Assembly (NCBI GenBank): GCA_050248595.1
Contig: JBFWSB010000001.1
Location: forward strand, 1 to 47,336
Direction of reading: 5' to 3'
DNA from: Candidatus Kapaibacterium sp.
GTDB lineage: Bacteria > Bacteroidota > Ignavibacteria > OLB7
DNA: 47,336 bases
In this document: positions 27,564-35,117 of the stretch, one piece after another
Numbering within the stretch: position 1 is the stretch's first letter
Layout of the letters: each line of letters opens with the position of its first letter
Notes under the pieces: model-generated
Told to the model about the DNA's origin: nothing
The model's input: only the letters and a program-made list of their open reading frames with translations
Databases searched by the model: none
Position numbers and translations under genes: made by a program

Positions 27564-28934
27564 CTACAACCCATACTTCTTCATCAACTCGTACATGGTC
27601 GAGCGGCTGACTTGCAGACGGGTTGCTGCTTCGCGGATGTTGCCGTCGGTGATCTCCAGTGCGTGCCGCACCGCTTGCTCTTTCAGTTCTTCGAGAGGAA
27701 CGATTTCGTGTAGCTCGTCGAAAATTGATGGTTGGGGAAGGTCAACAGATTCTCCATCTGCAAAGGCTTGAATGGTGAGGGGAAGGTCTTCTGGCGTAAT
27801 TGTTTCTCCCTCACAGAGGAGAACAGCACGCTCTATTGCACTCTCCAACTCCCGTACATTTCCGGGCCAGGGATAGTTGTGAATCATCTTCAGTGCCGAC
27901 CGGGCAAAGCCCCCCACCTTCTTCTTCTCACGCTCGGTAAACTTCACCAAGAAGTGCTCGGCAAGCAGGAGGATATCGGAGCGGCGAGCGCGAAGGGGAG
28001 GCAATTGAATTGGGAAGACTGCGAGGCGATAGTAGAGGTCTTCGCGGAACGTTCCAGCTCGCGAGGCTTTCAGCAAATCGCGGTTGGTTGCCGAGATGAT
28101 CCGAACGTCCGCCTCCATCGTCTGGTTCCCCCCCACTCGCTCAAACTGCCGTTCCTGAATTGCGCGAAGCAACTTCGCCTGCAAGTTTACTTCCATCTCT
28201 CCAATCTCATCTAAGAAGAGCGTTCCACCATTTGCCCCCTCAAACTTCCCGATCTTCTTCTCAACCGCGCCGGTAAAGGCTCCCTTCTCGTGACCGAACA
28301 TCTCACTCTCCAACAAATCTTTCGGGATCGCTGCACAGTTCACTGCAACGAACGGCCCCTCACTCCGCTTTCCACTGTAGTGAATGGCTCTGGCAATCAC
28401 CTCCTTTCCGGTTCCACTCTCACCTTGAATTAAGACTGAGATGTCACTCCCCTTCGCTTTGTCGACGAGACGTAGAACGGGATCCATTGCACTATCCTGC
28501 GTTACAACGGTTGCGTAGTGGCTCTTCGAGACAAGCTGGCGAAGTTCTCCAACCTCACGTTTCAGTCGGTGCAATTCCAGTCCATTTCGGACAGCATTCT
28601 CCAACTTCGTTAGGTCGATTGTCTTCGGGAAGTAGTCGATTGCACCAAGCTTCAGCGTTTCCACAGCTACCTCAATCTGTCCCTGCGCCGAGAGCATAAT
28701 CACCGGCATGTCGGGGACTCGACCTTTGATCTCTCGGAGCGCATCCACACCACTCATGCCGGGGAGCATAATGTCTAAGATTATAAGGTCGGGTTGTTGA
28801 TCTAAGGCCTCAAGACATGATTCTGCATCGCCGAACTGCTCCATTCGATAACCCCACTTGGTCACCAACCAGTGTTCGAGCAGACGGCGGATCGGCAGCT
28901 CATCGTCAACAACATATATCAGTGCAGTTTGCAT
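27564..28934 (-). CDS. Sigma-54-dependent response regulator (NtrC-type enhancer-binding protein: REC + AAA+ + Fis-type HTH)
   Basis: Receiver DLIILDIMLPGMSGVD, Walker A GESGTGKEV, sigma-54 contact loop EKGAFTGA, Walker B TLFLDEIGE, and C-terminal HTH REAATRLQVSRSTMYELMKKYGL. Confidence 0.92.
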   Translation of the reverse strand: MQTALIYVVDDELPIRRLLEHWLVTKWGYRMEQFGDAESCLEALDQQPDLIILDIMLPGMSGVDALREIKGRVPDMPVIMLSAQGQIEVAVETLKLGAIDYFPKTIDLTKLENAVRNGLELHRLKREVGELRQLVSKSHYATVVTQDSAMDPVLRLVDKAKGSDISVLIQGESGTGKEVIARAIHYSGKRSEGPFVAVNCAAIPKDLLESEMFGHEKGAFTGAVEKKIGKFEGANGGTLFLDEIGEMEVNLQAKLLRAIQERQFERVGGNQTMEADVRIISATNRDLLKASRAGTFREDLYYRLAVFPIQLPPLRARRSDILLLAEHFLVKFTEREKKKVGGFARSALKMIHNYPWPGNVRELESAIERAVLLCEGETITPEDLPLTIQAFADGESVDLPQPSIFDELHEIVPLEELKEQAVRHALEITDGNIREAATRLQVSRSTMYELMKKYGL

Positions 28935-29059: not shown

Positions 29060-29440
29060 CTACTTGTCTTTTCCAACCAACCCCTCCAACATCTCTACCA
29101 ATTTGGCCACATCGAAAGGCTTCGTCAGGTAGACATCGGCTCCGGCCTTCAAGCCAGCTTCCATATCGACATGTTGAGCACGGGAGGAGAGAAGAATGTA
29201 GGGAATATCACGCAGGCGTTCCTCTTCCTTCGCCCACCGGCACAACTCGATTCCATCAATGCCCGACATCATCACATCAGAGCAGATCACATCAAAGCGT
29301 TGTTCTTCAAGCAGACTCTTCCCCTCCAGTCCGTTCGAGGCCATCGTTACCTCGAAACCTGCACGCGACAGGTGATGGCGCAGGAGGATCTGCATACTCG
29401 GCTCATCTTCAACAATCAGTACTTGAGGATTAGTTATCAT
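29060..29440 (-). CDS. Single-domain response regulator (receiver only)
   Basis: 126 aa: VLIVEDEPSM, phospho-acceptor context DVICSDVMMSGIDG, and KAGADVYLTKPF. Confidence 0.9.
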   Translation of the reverse strand: MITNPQVLIVEDEPSMQILLRHHLSRAGFEVTMASNGLEGKSLLEEQRFDVICSDVMMSGIDGIELCRWAKEEERLRDIPYILLSSRAQHVDMEAGLKAGADVYLTKPFDVAKLVEMLEGLVGKDK

Positions 29441-29542: not shown

Positions 29543-31867
29543 TCAGTGCTTGGGAATTCTCACTCTAAAAGTCGATCCCTGTTCCGGCTGGCTCTCTACC
29601 TCGATGCTCCCACCATGTAGTTCCACCAACTGCTTTACAATTGCCAGACCAAGTCCAGTCCCTCGGATCTCAAGTCCGGGACGGCGCACACGGTAGAACT
29701 TTTCGAAGAGGTGGGGAATATCGTCGTGAGGGATACCAAGTCCAGTGTCGGCAACAGAAATCTCTATCTCGTCCTCTCCTCCACTATCCCCCTTCACAGA
29801 ACCAGCGCGAAGATCAATCCTTCCTCCCGAAGGAGTAAACTTCACGGCATTGCCCAGAAGGTTCACAACAATCTGCGTCATCCTATCGGGATCGAACGAC
29901 GCCGACAGCTCCCCCTCACTAAAAGAATTTTCCAGTTGAATTCCCTTCTTCTCTGCCTGCATCGCCACCGACTGAAGGGCGCGGTTAAGGAGCGGAACCA
30001 GATCGCTCTCCTTCCGCTCCAGCTCTACTCGTCCACTTTCGATGCGGGCAATGTCGAGCAGGTCATTAATTAACTTCGCTAAGCGTCCCCCTTCATCGTA
30101 GATGATCTGCAAGAACTCGGTTCGGGTCTCCGTCGGCAAATCGGGATCAATCATCAACGTCTGGGCAAAACCGATAATCGAAGCTAAGGGGGTGCGGAGT
30201 TCGTGAGAGACGCTGGAGACGAACTCGTTTTTCATCGCGTTCAACTCCTCTAACACGCGCACATGTTCCTTCTCGCGATCTCGCTCAATCTTCAGCAAAC
30301 GATTCGTCTCCTTTAACTCCTCGTTCAGCTCCCTGATACTCTCCTCTGCTCTCTTCCGCTCAGTGTCATCCCGAATGATGCCTGTGAAGTAGATCTGATC
30401 CTCCTCCTTAACCTCGGCAAAAGAGACACTCAGCGGAACTTCGTGCCCATCTCTGTGAAGTCCCGGAAGCTCCAGTGCCTGCCACGAGAGGTGTTTTACT
30501 CCAGTCTCCACATACCGTTCCAGTGCTTTCCTATGAAGGTGCCGAAGATATTCTGGCATCAACATCTCCAAGCTCTTCCCGAGCACTTCTTCCTCTTCAT
30601 ATCCGAAGATGGTTGCAGTAGCTCGATTAGCAAACAGGATAGTGCTCTGTTGATTGACCGTGATAATTGCATCACTTGCAGTTTCAGCCAACAGGCGGAA
30701 GCGTTCCTCACTCTCACGCAACGCATCTTCGGCCCTCTTACGCTCGGTGATGTCGCGGTAGTGCCAGAGATGTCCTTGATAGATTTCATCAATAAAGATT
30801 GGCACGTAGTCCCGCTCCAACACTGTGCCGTCGGCCATGCAAACCTCTTCGGCAACAACCTTGGTGCGGTTGGCCAGAATATCATCGATCCTGCGGACGA
30901 AGAGCTCAGGCTCAGCGAATAGCGACTTAGAGTCTTCCGCTGCCCCGGCACAGTCGGCACCAATTAGAACGCCGGGGGGAGCAGGAATCCGAAACATATC
31001 GCAGAAGGGCTGATTCAGGATTGCGATGTGACGCCTCTCATCTTCTACTAACACTCCCCCCTCTAAATTCTCAACAAGTGCGCCGAGTCGTGATGAGATC
31101 GCCCGAAGTTCATCTTCAACACGCTTCCTGTCGCTGATGTTGCGGGCAGTTGTGTGAATCTCGTAAACCGCTCCCGTCTCAGAGTCAACAAGTGGATGAG
31201 CCGAGGTCTCGAACCAGAGATATTCTCCCGAGATGTTGTGCTTGATTCTGGCAGAGAGGACGAAACGCCTTCCTCGACTCACGTTCAGCAGCAACGCGCG
31301 TTGCACTCGGGCTTGATCCTCCGGGTGCATAATGTCGTAGGCAGTTCTCCCGATTAGGTCATCGGGACGATAGCCTAACAGTGGCGTGCAGGATGGGGAG
31401 ACATAACGACAAATACCGTCGGCATCGTAGCGGACAATCATATCGGAGGCATTCTCGGCAAGAAACCGGAAGCGCTCTTCACTTTGCTGAAGCAATTCCT
31501 CAGCTTCGCGCCGAAGTTCAATTTGCTCGCGCAACGTGTCGGCAATCTGAAGGAGCCTCTCTCCCTCATCCTCTTCACTCTCGGTTGGCCTCTCTAAGTT
31601 CAGTGCTGAGAATGATTGGTGTAGCTTTTCCAAGAGAAGGAGTTGCCGTTCTCTCTCCTGCCATAGTTTCCGATTTGCTGCTAACAGTTCGCCGGAACTG
31701 AGGTCCATTGAACGTTCAATCAACTTCCGATCGACTTCGAAGTGATCGTACGATTCGCTGATCGCCTGCATCAACGGTTGAAGTTCGGGGGGAATAGTCT
31801 TCCCCTCGGCATACTTCCGAAGCTGACGCTCCAACAGAGAGTTATAGGTTCCGCCGTTTTGGTTCAT
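29543..31867 (-). CDS. Cytoplasmic multi-PAS sensor histidine kinase
   Basis: N-terminal coiled coil, three PAS-like repeats (each followed by RDITERKRAEE-type linkers), H-box SVSHELRTPLASIIGF, N-box NLLGNAVKFT, and G-boxes DTGLGI / GTGLGLAIVK. No TM segments were seen. Confidence 0.9.
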   Translation of the reverse strand: MNQNGGTYNSLLERQLRKYAEGKTIPPELQPLMQAISESYDHFEVDRKLIERSMDLSSGELLAANRKLWQERERQLLLLEKLHQSFSALNLERPTESEEDEGERLLQIADTLREQIELRREAEELLQQSEERFRFLAENASDMIVRYDADGICRYVSPSCTPLLGYRPDDLIGRTAYDIMHPEDQARVQRALLLNVSRGRRFVLSARIKHNISGEYLWFETSAHPLVDSETGAVYEIHTTARNISDRKRVEDELRAISSRLGALVENLEGGVLVEDERRHIAILNQPFCDMFRIPAPPGVLIGADCAGAAEDSKSLFAEPELFVRRIDDILANRTKVVAEEVCMADGTVLERDYVPIFIDEIYQGHLWHYRDITERKRAEDALRESEERFRLLAETASDAIITVNQQSTILFANRATATIFGYEEEEVLGKSLEMLMPEYLRHLHRKALERYVETGVKHLSWQALELPGLHRDGHEVPLSVSFAEVKEEDQIYFTGIIRDDTERKRAEESIRELNEELKETNRLLKIERDREKEHVRVLEELNAMKNEFVSSVSHELRTPLASIIGFAQTLMIDPDLPTETRTEFLQIIYDEGGRLAKLINDLLDIARIESGRVELERKESDLVPLLNRALQSVAMQAEKKGIQLENSFSEGELSASFDPDRMTQIVVNLLGNAVKFTPSGGRIDLRAGSVKGDSGGEDEIEISVADTGLGIPHDDIPHLFEKFYRVRRPGLEIRGTGLGLAIVKQLVELHGGSIEVESQPEQGSTFRVRIPKH

Positions 31868-33015
31868 CGTTCGGAAAAAGTGGTAATCGTCATCGTCTGA
31901 TTGTGAAGCTCACAACGAGGAGAATCGATAAGTGGAGATATTTCACCATACGAATAGAAGCCTGTGATTGCTGTCCCCTCACCCAACCGCTGGCCAACAG
32001 CCTCCACCTCTTCCTCGGCACGTCCTGCCAACACTAATTTTCTACCGACGCAACTGACGAGGAGAGCAAGTTCCGGCTGTACCGATCCGAGTGTTTCGTA
32101 GCTGAGGTCGGCAGCGGTGGAGGCTCCGTCGATCAGTCGATCAAAGTTTGCCTTCATCAGGCGAGCGTAGGCTCCCTGCGGAACGTCACCGGCGAAGATC
32201 ATCGACTCCTCTTCATCATCAATGGAGAGGATTGTTCGGACAACAGATTCCCCCATCTCTGAATCACGAATGCTTAGAGGGAAACGGAGTGCCGAGCCGG
32301 GAAGCTCGTCGGCAAGTTCGCCGAGGTATTGTTTGTAAAGACCGAGTGCCGACTGTCCATCCAGTTCGTAGAGAACATTCTTTTGGGATCGAGTGACGAT
32401 GCGGTCGGGACCGAACGAATCCCACCCACCAATCGAACCATATCCAACTCTGAGTGATTCTCCATAGAAACTGATGGCGACGATATTCCCCTCTGCGGGG
32501 GGAGCATCCAGCCCAACCAACGTTTTCTGGAATCGATCACTGTCGCCGGCAAGGCCACCGGTAATTGGCGCAGCCCCCATCAGCCCACGCGAGATACCGT
32601 TAATCAACTCGCTGCCGTTCACATGCTGTCCGTCGGAGATCACCATCAGGTGAACAAGACTCTCCCGAGAGATACTCTTGACTAAAGCCATGCCAGCAGA
32701 ATCACTTTCGTGGAATCCGGAGATGTTGGTGGAGGTAATTGAGAACTTTGACTTCTCAAATTTGATTGCCGTAACCACAATCGTGTTATCGTAGACGTTC
32801 TCCCCTAAAATCTCTCCGGCTGTAGAGCAGGTAATGATGCGCGCGTTCGGGTAGAAGTCTCGTATTTCGTGGAACCGCTCCGAGGTCTCCAGCTCTTCTC
32901 GTGCACCGAAGGCAAAGACAAGCTCATAAGAACTTTGCGAGATTGCTTCTTCTCCTCCTCTTTCTACTTCCTTCCAACCTTCGGTTGAAGACCAGAGCCG
33001 TTGTTGAATGTGCAT
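31864..33015 (-). CDS. FIST-domain sensory protein (FIST_N + FIST_C)
   Basis: 383 aa, soluble. The pattern (LVFAFGA..., ITCSTAGEI, GGLAGD, ...ITGFYSYGEISP) is typical of FIST/FIST_C. Its stop overlaps the kinase start (31864-31867), implying translational coupling. Confidence 0.78.
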   Translation of the reverse strand: MHIQQRLWSSTEGWKEVERGGEEAISQSSYELVFAFGAREELETSERFHEIRDFYPNARIITCSTAGEILGENVYDNTIVVTAIKFEKSKFSITSTNISGFHESDSAGMALVKSISRESLVHLMVISDGQHVNGSELINGISRGLMGAAPITGGLAGDSDRFQKTLVGLDAPPAEGNIVAISFYGESLRVGYGSIGGWDSFGPDRIVTRSQKNVLYELDGQSALGLYKQYLGELADELPGSALRFPLSIRDSEMGESVVRTILSIDDEEESMIFAGDVPQGAYARLMKANFDRLIDGASTAADLSYETLGSVQPELALLVSCVGRKLVLAGRAEEEVEAVGQRLGEGTAITGFYSYGEISPLIDSPRCELHNQTMTITTFSER

Positions 33016-33331: not shown

Positions 33332-33366
33332 TGTCCGATTCCCGGAATCTGTCCGATAACCGGACA
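33332..33366 (+). promoter_or_regulatory. Two tandem palindromes TGTCCG-N5-CGGA (candidate enhancer/UAS for the adjacent EBP)
   Basis: TGTCCGATTCCCGGAA (33332-33347) and TGTCCGATAACCGGACA (33350-33366). The TCCG-N5-CGGA cores are 18 bp apart and lie about 60-90 bp upstream of the -24/-12 element. Confidence 0.4.
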
Positions 33367-33419
33367 CTTTTCAGAAGTCCCGACCTTCGTTTTTAGGCTT
33401 TTTTCCCACTTTCTAACCT

Positions 33420-33436
33420 TCGGCACGCAGATTGGA
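33420..33436 (+). promoter_or_regulatory. Candidate sigma-54 (-24/-12) promoter of the DUF4402 pilin gene
   Basis: TCGGCACGCAGATTGGA versus consensus TGGCACG-N4-TTGCW. The GG and the TTG are correctly spaced, with mismatches at the first T and the last C. It lies about 70 nt upstream of the ATG at 33506, which has a GGAGGT Shine-Dalgarno. A GAFTGA-containing EBP is encoded divergently. Confidence 0.55.
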
Positions 33437-33505
33437 GTATCTCTTTCCAAACGGCAAAACGCCAAGTATCAATAACCACAATTCAATTATCTGGAGGTAT
33501 CCAAA

Positions 33506-34036
33506 ATGAAAAAGCAAATCAACTACCGCACGCTCTTCTTCTCGGCAGCTCTCGCAATCGCCGGAATGTTTGCTCTGAACACCGCCGCACAGGCACAGAG
33601 CAGTGCTTCGGCCTCAGCCGACGCAGAGGCAAAGATCGTCTCCGGCATCTCGCTCGAGAAAGTGCTCGACTTGAACTTCGGCTCTATTGTTCGCTCGGCT
33701 GAAGGTGGAATGGTGACAATCGACCCGAACAGTGGAAACATCTCTTACAGCGGTGTAACGCAAGGACAGAACAGCAACTATCAGGCAGCGCAGTTCGAGA
33801 CGACAGGTGAGGCCGACTATCTCTACTCAATCTCACTGCCAAGCTCCGCAACGCTTAATCGGAATGGTGGGAACGAGACGATGACAGTCACAGACTTCTC
33901 TTACACCGAGGGGGCTGGAACGCTCGACACACAGGGAGCAGAATCCTTCGATGTCGGTGGCACGCTAAACGTCGGCCCGAATCAAGCAACTGGTCGCTAC
34001 ATCGGTTCGTTCGAAGTCTCGGTACAGTATCAATAA
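33506..34036 (+). CDS. DUF4402-family secreted protein (SCPU/CsuA-B-like archaic chaperone-usher pilin)
   Basis: Signal peptide ending AAQAQ; AKIVSGISLEKVLDLNFGSIV; AAQFETTGEADYLYSISLP; MTVTDFSY; FDVGGTLNVGPNQATGRYIGSFEVSVQY. This matches the DUF4402 consensus layout block by block. Confidence 0.85.
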   Translation: MKKQINYRTLFFSAALAIAGMFALNTAAQAQSSASASADAEAKIVSGISLEKVLDLNFGSIVRSAEGGMVTIDPNSGNISYSGVTQGQNSNYQAAQFETTGEADYLYSISLPSSATLNRNGGNETMTVTDFSYTEGAGTLDTQGAESFDVGGTLNVGPNQATGRYIGSFEVSVQYQ

Positions 34037-34065
34037 TCGATCGCAAGGAGGAGAGTGATGAGGGT

Positions 34066-34106
34066 GAGAGGGGCATCAGTGCAGGACTGATAGCCCCTCT
34101 CTTTTG
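34066..34106 (+). terminator. Intrinsic terminator-like hairpin after the pilin gene
   Basis: GAGAGGGGC ATCAG tgcagga CTGAT a GCCCCTCTC (arms 34066-34079 and 34087-34101), followed by TTTT at 34102-34105. Confidence 0.6.
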
Positions 34107-34149
34107 ATCGCGGCTTTTCCCTCCCATGCGGGTGAGCCGCGATCAAAAG
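34101..34149 (+). promoter_or_regulatory. Second 14-bp perfect hairpin whose 5' arm contains the U-tract of the preceding terminator
   Basis: CTTTTGATCGCGGC (34101-34114) pairs with GCCGCGATCAAAAG (34136-34149) across a 21-nt loop. It overlaps the terminator T-run, so the two structures compete for the same bases. Confidence 0.5.
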
Positions 34150-34238
34150 AGAGAAAGAGGAGAGGCAAGGGCAGAGCGGGTCGGAACTACAACTACATCG
34201 TCAATTTTTCCATCACATCTCATACAGTAGGAATCATT

Positions 34239-35087
34239 ATGAAGGCAACGCTGAACGTAGAACGGTTGATCGCTACCACCCTCACTCTTCTGGCCACACT
34301 TCACCTGAGTGCGTCGGCTCAGGGACCAGGTGACCTTCTGGTAACCCCGACGCGAACGCTCTTTGAGGGGGGAAAGCGGAACGAAGTTCTTACCCTGATA
34401 AATCGTGGAAGCGACACGGCAACGTACCGGATGTCGGTACTCCAGTATCGGATGACGAGCGAGGGGAACTTAGAAGTAATCACGACACCGGACGAAGGAC
34501 AACTCTTCGCAACTGATCTGATTCGCTTCTTCCCACGAGAGGTAACGATTCCGCCGGGTGAGACACAGAACGTGCGCGTGCAACTCCGCACGCCTGCCGA
34601 CCTTGCAGATGGAGAATATCGATCCCACCTCTACTTCAGAGCTGTGCCGAAAGTGGAGCCACTGACCGGAGATGAAGACTCTTCTACAACGGAATTCTCG
34701 GTAAAGCTGTCGGCGATCTACGGCGTTTCAATTCCAATGATTGTCCGCAAAGGTGAGCTGGAAGCCTCGGTCACAATGCGCGATCTCACACTCAAATCTG
34801 ATAGTGGTAGAGCATCGGTTAGAATGACCTTCGACCGTCAGGGGAGCAGTTCGGTCTACGGCACAGTCCGCATCTACCACGAGAGCAGTTCGGGAGTGCG
34901 GACGGCAATTGGGGGAATTGGTGGTGTGGCAATCTACACGCCGAACGTTACCCGCTCATTTAGCCTGCCACTCTCTCTACCGGAAGGGATTGATCTGAGT
35001 GAGGGGAGAGTGATCGTGACCTACGAAAGTCAGTCGGAGACCTCTTCAACTCTTTTGACTGAGGGAAGATTGGAGTTGAGTAAGTAG
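34239..35087 (+). CDS. PapD-like periplasmic pilus chaperone
   Basis: Start at MKATLNVERLIATTLTLLATLHLSASAQ (signal peptide); the track ORF extension upstream covers the hairpins. LLVTPTRTLFEGGKRNEVLTLINRGSDTATYRMSV and FFPREVTIPPGETQNVRVQLR...EYRSHLYF follow the two-Ig-domain chaperone pattern. Confidence 0.78.
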   Translation: MKATLNVERLIATTLTLLATLHLSASAQGPGDLLVTPTRTLFEGGKRNEVLTLINRGSDTATYRMSVLQYRMTSEGNLEVITTPDEGQLFATDLIRFFPREVTIPPGETQNVRVQLRTPADLADGEYRSHLYFRAVPKVEPLTGDEDSSTTEFSVKLSAIYGVSIPMIVRKGELEASVTMRDLTLKSDSGRASVRMTFDRQGSSSVYGTVRIYHESSSGVRTAIGGIGGVAIYTPNVTRSFSLPLSLPEGIDLSEGRVIVTYESQSETSSTLLTEGRLELSK

Positions 35088-35117
35088 TACAATCGGCAGC
35101 CCTATCCAGACTTTACC

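What the first reader, a model, noticed from the sequence alone, without database searches (positions are those of the whole stretch)
33332..33436. Near-consensus sigma-54 promoter with two tandem TCCG-N5-CGGA palindromes upstream
TCGGCACGCAGATTGGA (33420-33436) matches TGGCACG-N4-TTGC at the spacing-critical GG and TTG positions. About 60-90 bp upstream lie TGTCCGATTCCCGGAA and TGTCCGATAACCGGACA, two dyads 18 bp apart. That is the geometry expected for a pair of EBP dimers nucleating a hexamer. This gives a concrete, testable cis-regulatory model for the pilus operon.
Basis: seen in the sequence. Interest (0 to 1): 0.6.

Follow-up and report, generated by a model that had tools for sequence, protein, structure and literature searches.

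The report
Conserved sigma-54 enhancer-promoter for fibre operon
The two palindromes and the sigma-54-type promoter are real and conserved in the same arrangement in front of fibre-subunit genes in related genomes, so this is an ordinary enhancer-dependent switch, though its -12 box is weak rather than near-consensus.

Summary
Dyad 1 is at 33332-33348, dyad 2 (a perfect palindrome) at 33350-33366, and CGGCACG-N4-TTGG at 33421-33435.

"Near-consensus" is overstated. The -12 C is a G. With a canonical sigma-54 matrix the site ranks about 1113th in the genome and 40th among intergenic sites that face a gene.

Comparative evidence carries the case:
- The 35-bp two-dyad element occurs at 18 loci in 9 of 21 genomes of the family. 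It is absent from 134 genomes of other families, and a reversed control pattern gave no hits.
- A GGCA(C/T)G element lies 89-90 bp after the element's start in 17 of 18 loci, and 100 bp in one (a helical turn more).
- The downstream genes are DUF4402 fibre subunits, and once an usher-like gene.
- A profile built from 16 other loci hits this genome only here (E = 3e-13).
- The module tracks orthologs of the divergently encoded NtrC-type activator: 12 of 16 genomes with the ortholog have it, 0 of 5 without.
- rpoN is present and the activator carries GAFTGA.

Two additions: helically phased T-tracts lie between enhancer and promoter, and the -12 box is non-canonical in 30 of 32 related promoters.

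Verdict: a new member of a known kind, of modest interest. No transcript data could be obtained.

The parts
33332..33348 (+). Distal enhancer dyad 1, TGTCCGATTCCCGGAAT. The left half-site is perfect. The right half-site is CGGAAT, a deviation shared by many related loci (11 of 18 read exactly CGGAAT).
   Evidence: columns TGTCCG and CGGAA are near-invariant across 18 loci.
33350..33366 (+). Proximal enhancer dyad 2, TGTCCGATAACCGGACA. It is a perfect 6-N5-6 palindrome centred about 89 bp upstream of the predicted start.
   Evidence: unique in the genome; this is the dyad retained in G008, where dyad 1 has degenerated.
33390..33413 (+). Three helically phased T-tracts (33390-33394, 33400-33405, 33411-33413) between enhancer and promoter. 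Inferred to be an intrinsic bend that helps looping.
   Evidence: T-tracts peak at -30, -19 and -10 relative to the GG across 18 loci; 24 of 39 windows against 5.5 +/- 2.0 in shuffles, with windows chosen after seeing the data.
33421..33436 (+). Sigma-54-type core promoter CGGCACG-CAGA-TTGG-A. The -24 GG is at 33422-33423. The -13/-12 positions (33434-33435) read GG instead of GC.
   Evidence: GGCA and the T at -15 are invariant in 32 related promoters. The G008 homologs have a canonical GC.
33445..33450 (+). Predicted transcription start, about 33447, which is 24 nt after the -24 G.
   Evidence: Inference from the fixed -24/-12 geometry of sigma-54 promoters. Not measured. The block 33418-33465 is conserved with G003.
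33493..33497 (+). Shine-Dalgarno GGAGG, 8 nt before the ATG.
   Evidence: the GGAG core is conserved in G003, which reads GGAGT.
33506..34036 (+). DUF4402 fibre-subunit-like gene (176 aa, signal peptide, C-terminal G-Y-G-F-V-V-Y strand). First gene driven by the promoter.
   Evidence: PF14352, E = 1.2e-30.
34104..35087 (+). Putative periplasmic chaperone (327 aa).
   Evidence: PapD_N at E = 1.3e-3, below the curated cut-off. 56% identical homolog next to the pilin genes in G008.
35118..37691 (+). 857-aa usher-like outer-membrane candidate. No usher Pfam match.
   Evidence: Syntenic homolog in G008. A homolog in G009 sits directly behind its own enhancer-promoter module.
37905..38942 (+). 345-aa protein with no family match. 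Last gene of the presumed operon.
27564..28934 (-). NtrC-type enhancer-binding response regulator (REC-AAA+-Fis HTH). It has D54, GESGTGKE, GAFTGA at 218, and the recognition helix SRSTMYELMKKY. Proposed binder of the dyads.
29060..29440 (-). Single-domain response regulator (receiver domain only).
29543..31867 (-). Cytoplasmic multi-PAS histidine kinase.
   Evidence: No membrane-type hydrophobic window.
31864..33015 (-). FIST sensor protein, distantly NosP-like. First gene of the divergent signalling operon.
   Evidence: NosP model scores 58 bits against a cut-off of 450.

Best explanation
The region 33332-33436 is the control region of the DUF4402 fibre operon (33506-38942). It has three parts:
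1. A 35-bp enhancer made of two abutting 17-bp dyads.
2. A 54-bp spacer with helically phased T-tracts.
3. A sigma-54-type core promoter with a strong -24 box and a weak -12 box (TTGG).

Proposed mechanism, all steps inferred:
- The cytoplasmic FIST sensor and PAS histidine kinase encoded divergently phosphorylate the NtrC-type activator (27564-28934) at D54.
- Two activator dimers occupy the dyads, centred near -107 and -89, and assemble the AAA+ ring.
- The intrinsically bent spacer brings the ring to the RNA polymerase-sigma-54 closed complex.
- ATP hydrolysis, acting through the GAFTGA loop, opens the promoter.
- Transcription starts near 33447.

Shown by sequence: the elements exist and their arrangement is conserved; the module co-occurs with the activator ortholog; rpoN is present.
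For: - Coordinates and sequences are as reported.
- The composite enhancer occurs at 18 loci in 9 of 21 family genomes. The reversed control gave 0 hits and 134 other genomes of the class gave 0 hits.
- A GGCA -24 element lies 89-90 bp from the enhancer start in 17 of 18 loci and 100 bp in one. Orientation is always the same.
- Relaxed versions stand in front of further subunit genes in G007, G017, G019 and G008.
- The downstream genes are DUF4402 subunits of two sequence classes, and once an usher-like gene.
- Between G000 and G003 only the enhancer, the T-tracts, the promoter to about +20 and the ribosome-binding site align in the intergenic region.
- A leave-one-out profile gives a single genome-wide hit here, E = 3e-13.
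- G008 homologs have a canonical GG-N10-GC.
- rpoN is present with the ARRTVAKYR box, and the EBP has GAFTGA, Walker motifs and D54.
- EBP orthologs (63-86% identity) all keep the recognition helix SRST(M/I/L)Y, while paralogs differ.
- The module is present in 12 of 16 genomes with the ortholog and 0 of 5 without. Fisher one-sided p is about 0.006, my arithmetic, not corrected for phylogeny. G005 has subunit genes but neither EBP nor module.
- No sigma-70-like promoter, Rfam element or other sigma-54-like site lies between the two operons; the only other weak sigma-54-like hit (7.1 bits, 33513, minus strand) falls just inside the pilin coding region.
- P. putida sigma-54 transcribes TTGAAT as well as TTGCAT -12 boxes in vitro (PMC11997794).
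Against: - The -12 C is missing. A canonical matrix ranks the site about 1113th genome-wide and 40th of 231 among intergenic gene-facing sites.
- In the second subunit class the TTG of the -12 box sits one base closer to the GG than the canonical spacing allows.
- G012, G014 and G016 have the EBP ortholog but no module and no DUF4402 gene.
- One metagenome contig has the dyads without a -24 box at the usual distance.
- The 18 loci are homologous and not independent. They form 13 spacer clusters.
Confidence: 0.72

Rival explanations
1. The promoter is sigma-54-dependent, but the dyads are bound by another protein. This could be one of the three other EBPs of the genome or a non-EBP regulator, with the neighbouring EBP acting elsewhere.
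For: The genome has four EBPs. In G007, G009, G011 and G018 the modules lie on contigs other than the EBP's. G012, G014 and G016 keep the EBP ortholog without any module.
Against: The other EBP types have orthologs in genomes that lack the module. The module is absent from all 5 genomes without this EBP. The module is adjacent to this EBP's operon in G000, G004, G008, G013 and G015. The operon's other products have no DNA-binding domain.
Confidence: 0.13
2. The conserved YGGCAYG box is not a sigma-54 -24 element. Another sigma factor, or a factor that binds this box, drives transcription, and the dyads act as an ordinary activator or operator site.
For: Only 2 of 32 related promoters have the GC at -13/-12, and many have the TTG shifted by one base. 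The canonical matrix score is at background level.
Against: GGCA is invariant, and so is the T at -15. The distance to an EBP-type enhancer is fixed, with a variant one helical turn longer. G008 homologs have a canonical GC. rpoN and a GAFTGA activator are present. No sigma-70-type promoter was found.
Confidence: 0.08
3. The motifs are chance matches with no function.
For: A single 12-base palindrome is expected about 0.27 times per genome (my arithmetic). Sigma-54-like matches with two mismatches are at the chance level in the window.
Against: The arrangement is conserved at 18 or more loci. The reversed control and 134 outgroup genomes gave 0 hits. The profile hit is at E = 3e-13.
Confidence: 0.01

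Closest known systems
NtrC at glnAp2 of enteric bacteria (from memory, not checked here)
   Same: A REC-AAA+-Fis-HTH activator. Its 17-bp dyads have the same 6-N5-6 layout (TGCACC-N5-GGTGCA). Two adjacent strong sites nucleate the oligomer upstream of a sigma-54 promoter.
   Different: The half-site sequence differs. Here the dyads abut (18 bp centre to centre, against about 32 bp), lie closer to the promoter (about -107 and -89, against -140 and -108), and the -12 box is non-consensus. The EBP is below every NCBIfam equivalog cut-off, including ntrC, AtoC and ZraR.
GlrR (QseF) at glmY: three TGTC-N10-GACA sites, IHF and a sigma-54 promoter (PMC3045617)
   Same: Outer TGTC...GACA half-sites, multiple activator sites, and a sigma-54 promoter with a bend between sites and promoter.
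   Different: The spacing here is TGTC-N9-GACA with conserved inner CG/CGG bases. There are two sites, not three. Phased T-tracts stand in place of a recognisable IHF site. The target is a fibre operon, not a small RNA.
PilS-PilR control of type IV pilin pilA in Pseudomonas, Myxococcus and Geobacter (from memory)
   Same: A two-component EBP and sigma-54 drive transcription of the major subunit gene of a surface fibre.
   Different: The subunit here is DUF4402 with a PapD-like chaperone and an usher-like protein, not a type IV pilin. The sensor is a cytoplasmic FIST plus PAS kinase pair. The binding motif differs.
A/T-tract intrinsic curvature between the NtrC sites and the nifLA promoter of Klebsiella pneumoniae (from memory)
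   Same: Phased A/T-tracts between enhancer and sigma-54 promoter that can take the place of IHF.
   Different: Curvature here is inferred only from the position of T-tracts across loci. It has not been measured.
NosP with its partner histidine kinase (NCBIfam NF041558)
   Same: A FIST-family sensor protein encoded directly upstream of a histidine kinase.
   Different: The score is 58 bits against a cut-off of 450, so this is not a NosP equivalog. The ligand is unknown.

Membership tests
sigma-54-dependent promoter | GG doublet at -25/-24 inside YTGGCACG | tested here: met
   cGGCACG at 33421-33427. GGCA is invariant in 32 related promoters.
sigma-54-dependent promoter | TTGC(A/T) with the GC doublet exactly 10 bp after the GG | tested here: inconclusive
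   TTGG at 33432-33435: T, T and G are at the canonical positions and the C is replaced by G. Homologs in G008 have GC. Functional promoters without C at -12 exist (PMC11997794).
sigma-54-dependent promoter | rpoN present in the genome | tested here: met
   PF04552 at 201 bits on contig C13, with RpoN box ARRTVAKYR.
sigma-54-dependent promoter | Stands out from the genome background in a matrix scan | tested here: not met
   9.9 bits with my approximate canonical matrix. Rank about 1113 overall and 40 of 231 among intergenic gene-facing sites.
sigma-54-dependent promoter | Transcription start about 12 nt after the -12 box, with dependence on sigma-54 and an activator | not testable with these tools
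The organism is known only as a draft assembly.
bacterial enhancer (UAS) of an NtrC-type EBP | Dyad-symmetric sites suited to a Fis-type HTH dimer, two or more, 70-150 bp upstream of the promoter | tested here: met
   Two 17-bp dyads centred 82 and 64 bp upstream of the GG. The arrangement is conserved.
bacterial enhancer (UAS) of an NtrC-type EBP | A cognate EBP with an intact AAA+ domain, GAFTGA and a C-terminal HTH, encoded nearby or co-occurring | tested here: met
   Co-occurrence is 12 of 16 against 0 of 5. Exceptions: G012, G014, G016.
bacterial enhancer (UAS) of an NtrC-type EBP | Face-of-helix dependence of the distance to the promoter | tested here: met
   Distance is 89-90 bp in 17 loci and 100 bp in one. 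This is comparative evidence only.
bacterial enhancer (UAS) of an NtrC-type EBP | Physical binding of the EBP to the sites | not testable with these tools
   Needs gel shift or footprinting.
chaperone-usher fibre operon (the regulated genes) | Subunit, PapD-type chaperone and usher recognisable by family models | tested here: inconclusive
   DUF4402 at E = 1.2e-30. PapD_N at E = 1.3e-3, below cut-off. No usher model matched. No PDB relatives by sequence for the subunit or chaperone. The AlphaFold model of the subunit failed, pLDDT 38.

The most novel reading that the evidence does not exclude
This family may have evolved a dedicated class of sigma-54 promoters for an uncharacterised fibre system (DUF4402). 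The class would have these features:
- An invariant -24 box with a -12 box that is non-consensus in 30 of 32 cases.
- An enhancer of two abutting dimer sites only about 54 bp from the promoter.
- An intrinsically bent spacer instead of IHF.
- Copies in front of up to 11 subunit genes per genome.

The weak -12 box would then be a selected feature that sets basal occupancy and activator dependence, not decay.
Probability: 0.3. Interest if true: 0.5.

Novelty: new member of a known kind. Interest (0 to 1): 0.35.

Why it matters
The result gives a concrete, testable regulatory circuit for DUF4402 fibres: a FIST sensor, a PAS kinase, an NtrC-type activator, a defined 35-bp enhancer and a sigma-54 promoter. 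No paper in the searched library mentions this protein family. The lineage (Kapaibacteria-like, near Ignavibacteria) has no genetics.

It also provides about 32 natural promoter variants with a constant -24 box and a variable -12 box. These could be used to study how much -12 information sigma-54 needs when the enhancer is close and the DNA is pre-bent. The mechanism itself is textbook.

Tried and rejected
- **Canonical sigma-54 matrix scan** (my approximate weights). It does not single out the site, so I relied on comparative evidence instead.
- **FIST-anchored loci from other phyla.** 78 of 80 lack the DUF4402 neighbour, and 77 lack any dyad within one mismatch outside the two family members (three show only isolated single one-mismatch matches). 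None has this EBP. They were therefore uninformative about the enhancer.
- **Covariation between the EBP recognition helix and dyad variants.** The helix is too conserved to show any.
- **AlphaFold2 of the subunit with 8 sequences.** pLDDT was 38, so the model was unusable and no fold search was run.
- **PDB sequence search for subunit and chaperone.** No hits.
- **Other elements in the intergenic region.** Sigma-70 and terminator scans and Rfam found nothing.
- **Metagenome scan for the composite.** One hit only, without the promoter.
- **Literature search** for DUF4402 and for TGTCCG with enhancer-binding proteins. Nothing relevant.
- **Single dyad plus promoter search in G012, G014, G016 and G020.** No module found.
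- **An IHF consensus in the spacer.** Considered and not seen by eye. No formal IHF matrix was run.

Full report
**1. The observation**

- TGTCCGATTCCCGGAAT at 33332-33348.
- TGTCCGATAACCGGACA at 33350-33366, a perfect 6-N5-6 palindrome.
- TCGGCACGCAGATTGGA at 33420-33436.

The dyads start 18 bp apart. Their centres lie 82 and 64 bp upstream of the GG at 33422-33423. The elements sit in a 490-bp gap between two divergent operons.
- The minus strand encodes a FIST protein (31864-33015), a multi-PAS histidine kinase (29543-31867), a receiver-only response regulator (29060-29440) and an NtrC-type enhancer-binding protein, or EBP, with REC, AAA+ and Fis-type HTH domains (27564-28934).
- The plus strand encodes a DUF4402 protein (33506-34036), a weakly PapD-like protein (34104-35087), an 857-aa protein with no usher match (35118-37691) and a 345-aa protein (37905-38942).

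**2. Is it more than chance within this genome?**

The window is contig C1 of a 4.49-Mb draft assembly of 511 contigs.
- The perfect dyad is unique in the genome, but about 0.27 copies are expected, so this is weak alone. TCCG-N5-CGGA occurs 95 times.
- The core promoter has two mismatches to TGGCACG-N4-TTGC, including the -12 C. The window holds 13 such matches against 10.3 expected.
- With an approximate canonical matrix (weights from my memory of published compilations) the site scores 9.9 bits. It ranks about 1113th of all positions and 40th of 231 intergenic sites facing a gene within 300 bp.
- Canonical TTGC sites do exist in this genome. They are enriched in intergenic DNA at the top of the list: 5 of the top 10 hits are intergenic, although only 11% of the genome is non-coding.

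So 'near-consensus' is not justified.

**3. Comparative evidence**

A relative annotated as Candidatus Kapaibacterium sp. has the same layout upstream of a DUF4402 homolog that diverges from FIST: TGTCCGGATTTCGGAAT-c-TGTACGGAATCCGGACA, then CTGGCACGAAGGTTGGG.

A pattern for the composite (two dyads, up to 2 mismatches) gave these results:
- It matched 18 loci in 9 of 21 genomes of the family, with no hit for the reversed control.
- It matched nothing in 134 genomes of other families of the class.
- At every locus with enough sequence, a GGCA(C/T)G element follows in the same orientation. It lies 89-90 bp from the enhancer start in 17 of 18 loci, and 100 bp in one, G007:C22, which is one helical turn more.
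- The consensus enhancer is TGTCCGGATTCCGGAAT-c-TGTCCGGTATCCGGACA. The deviation from symmetry in the inner arm of the distal dyad (CGGAAT) recurs in many related loci: 11 of 18 read exactly CGGAAT.

Further evidence from related loci:
- Relaxed versions precede more subunit genes in G007, G017 and G019.
- In G008, five tandem subunit genes keep the proximal dyad, and two of their promoters read TCGC, the canonical GC at -13/-12.
- The genes behind the module are DUF4402 subunits of two sequence classes that share the C-terminal Q..G.Y.G.F.V...Y strand. In G009 one is a homolog of the window's 857-aa protein (E = 2.5e-22).
- Between G000 and its congener G003, the intergenic DNA aligns only at the enhancer, the T-tract positions, the promoter through about +20 and the ribosome-binding site. 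In G003 the module is not next to FIST, so it belongs to the subunit gene and not to the FIST operon.
- A profile HMM built from 16 modules of other genomes, with the window's copy left out, hits G000 exactly once, at 33332-33439, with E = 3e-13.

**4. Who binds and who transcribes?**

- G000 has one rpoN with the canonical RpoN box ARRTVAKYR.
- G000 has four EBPs.
- The neighbouring EBP has the phospho-acceptor D54, Walker A GESGTGKE, Walker B, and GAFTGA at residue 218.
- Its closest solved relatives are Aquifex NtrC1 and NtrC4 and ZraR. It is below every NCBIfam equivalog cut-off.

Orthologs of this EBP separate cleanly from paralogs. Orthologs share 63-86% identity and score above 630 bits, while paralogs are at or below 45%. 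Orthologs occur in 16 of 21 family genomes. All keep the recognition helix SRST(M/I/L)YE, whereas paralogs read DPATLWR.

The module, strict or relaxed, is present in 12 of the 16 genomes with the ortholog and in none of the 5 without it. G005 is notable: it has five subunit homologs but neither the EBP nor the module. Fisher's one-sided p is about 0.006 by my arithmetic, without phylogenetic correction.

There are exceptions. G012, G014 and G016 have the ortholog, without a FIST operon beside it, and have no DUF4402 gene and no module. G020 is fragmentary. In several genomes the modules lie on contigs other than the EBP's, so the factor acts in trans on a small regulon. G009 and G015 each have four modules.

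The kinase and the FIST protein have no membrane-type segments. The FIST protein is only distantly NosP-like (58 bits against a cut-off of 450).

**5.

(a) Phased T-tracts. The spacers are otherwise unconserved, forming 13 clusters below 70% identity. Yet they carry T-tracts at -30, -19 and -10 relative to the GG, a period of about 10-11 bp. In the window these are at 33390-33394, 33400-33405 and 33411-33413. T-tracts fill 24 of 39 position windows, against 5.5 +/- 2.0 after shuffling. The windows were chosen after seeing the data, so this figure is optimistic. I read this as an intrinsic bend that helps a very short loop. No IHF-like site is evident by eye.

(b) A non-canonical -12 box. In 32 module-linked promoters the -24 GGCA and the T at -15 are invariant. 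Only 2 have GC at -13/-12, 9 have GG, and in the second subunit class the TTG lies one base closer to the GG. In vitro, P. putida sigma-54 transcribes from TTGAAT as well as TTGCAT -12 boxes, and the strongest promoters are TTGCAT only (PMC11997794). A G at -12 is therefore compatible with function and probably gives a weaker promoter.

**6. Mechanism (inferred)**

1. A signal sensed by the FIST-PAS kinase pair leads to phosphorylation of the EBP at D54.
2. Two dimers bind the abutting dyads, centred near -107 and -89, and seed the AAA+ hexamer.
3. The bent spacer delivers the hexamer to the sigma-54 closed complex.
4. Transcription starts near 33447. This gives a leader of about 59 nt with GGAGG at 33493-33497.

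No other promoter candidate lies between the two operons: a sigma-70 scan, an Rfam search and a scan for further sigma-54-like sites found nothing there, and the only other weak hit (7.1 bits, 33513, minus strand) falls just inside the pilin coding region.

**7. Comparison with known systems**

- The 6-N5-6 dyad layout and the use of two sites match NtrC at glnAp2 (from memory).
- The outer TGTC...GACA resembles GlrR/QseF sites, which are TGTC-N10-GACA in three copies with IHF and sigma-54 (PMC3045617).
- The biological logic resembles PilS-PilR control of pilin genes (from memory).

The differences are the half-site sequence, the abutting 18-bp spacing, the short distance to the promoter, the weak -12 box and the target family. 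No paper in the library mentions DUF4402, or TGTCCG together with bacterial EBPs.

**8. Limits**

- No transcript or binding data could be obtained.
- The subunit's AlphaFold model failed (pLDDT 38), and the chaperone and usher assignments are below family cut-offs. 'Pilus operon' therefore remains a reasonable label and not a demonstrated one.

**9. Verdict**

It is a new member of a known kind, of modest interest.

Noticed in passing
L126:126-141 (G000 contig C13:12490-12505): rpoN itself is preceded, 28 nt upstream of its start, by CGGCACGATTTTGGTA. This is a sigma-54-like -24 box with a TTGG one base closer than canonical. It may reflect autoregulation of rpoN.
   Followed up: no
L157:8475-8491 (G008 contig C35): A perfect TGTCCGCCTTCCGGACA dyad lies inside the FIST coding region of G008. 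It could be chance or an autoregulatory site.
   Followed up: no
L001:1987-2021 (also L112; G004 contig C178): G004 keeps the two-dyad enhancer and TGGCATGCTGATTGTG next to FIST, but no ORF follows. Its subunit gene with TGGCACGCGCATTGG is on another contig (L085). This looks like an orphan module or an assembly break.
   Followed up: partly
L168-L197 (G007, G017, G019); L157:3900-8060 (G008): DUF4402 subunit genes are amplified: 11 matches in G007, 9 in G017 (several are short fragments at contig ends) and five in tandem in G008. Most of the copies whose upstream regions I examined carry their own enhancer-promoter module; several in G007, G017, G019 and G008 show no recognisable enhancer.
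   Followed up: partly
L108, L109, L117, L118 (leaders about +15 to +90 after the promoter): Subunit genes of genus g2 share a structured leader of about 70 nt (predicted -25 kcal/mol) with apparently compensatory changes (GCGGC...GCTGC against GCGGT...ACCGC). The window's own leader lacks it.
   Followed up: no
L158, L159, L160 (G012, G014, G016): Three genomes keep a 67% identical EBP ortholog with the same recognition helix. They have no adjacent FIST operon, no DUF4402 gene and no module. Their target is unknown.
   Followed up: partly
window 31864-33015; L003-L080: The FIST protein has relatives of about 50-58% identity in many phyla (Bacteroidota, Nitrospirota, Pseudomonadota, Verrucomicrobiota and others). 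Its EBP partner and the dyads are confined to this family.
   Followed up: partly
L198:552-620 (metagenome contig Ga0190270_10311088, minus strand): Three tandem TGTCCG-type dyads occur without a -24 box at the usual +89 distance.
   Followed up: no
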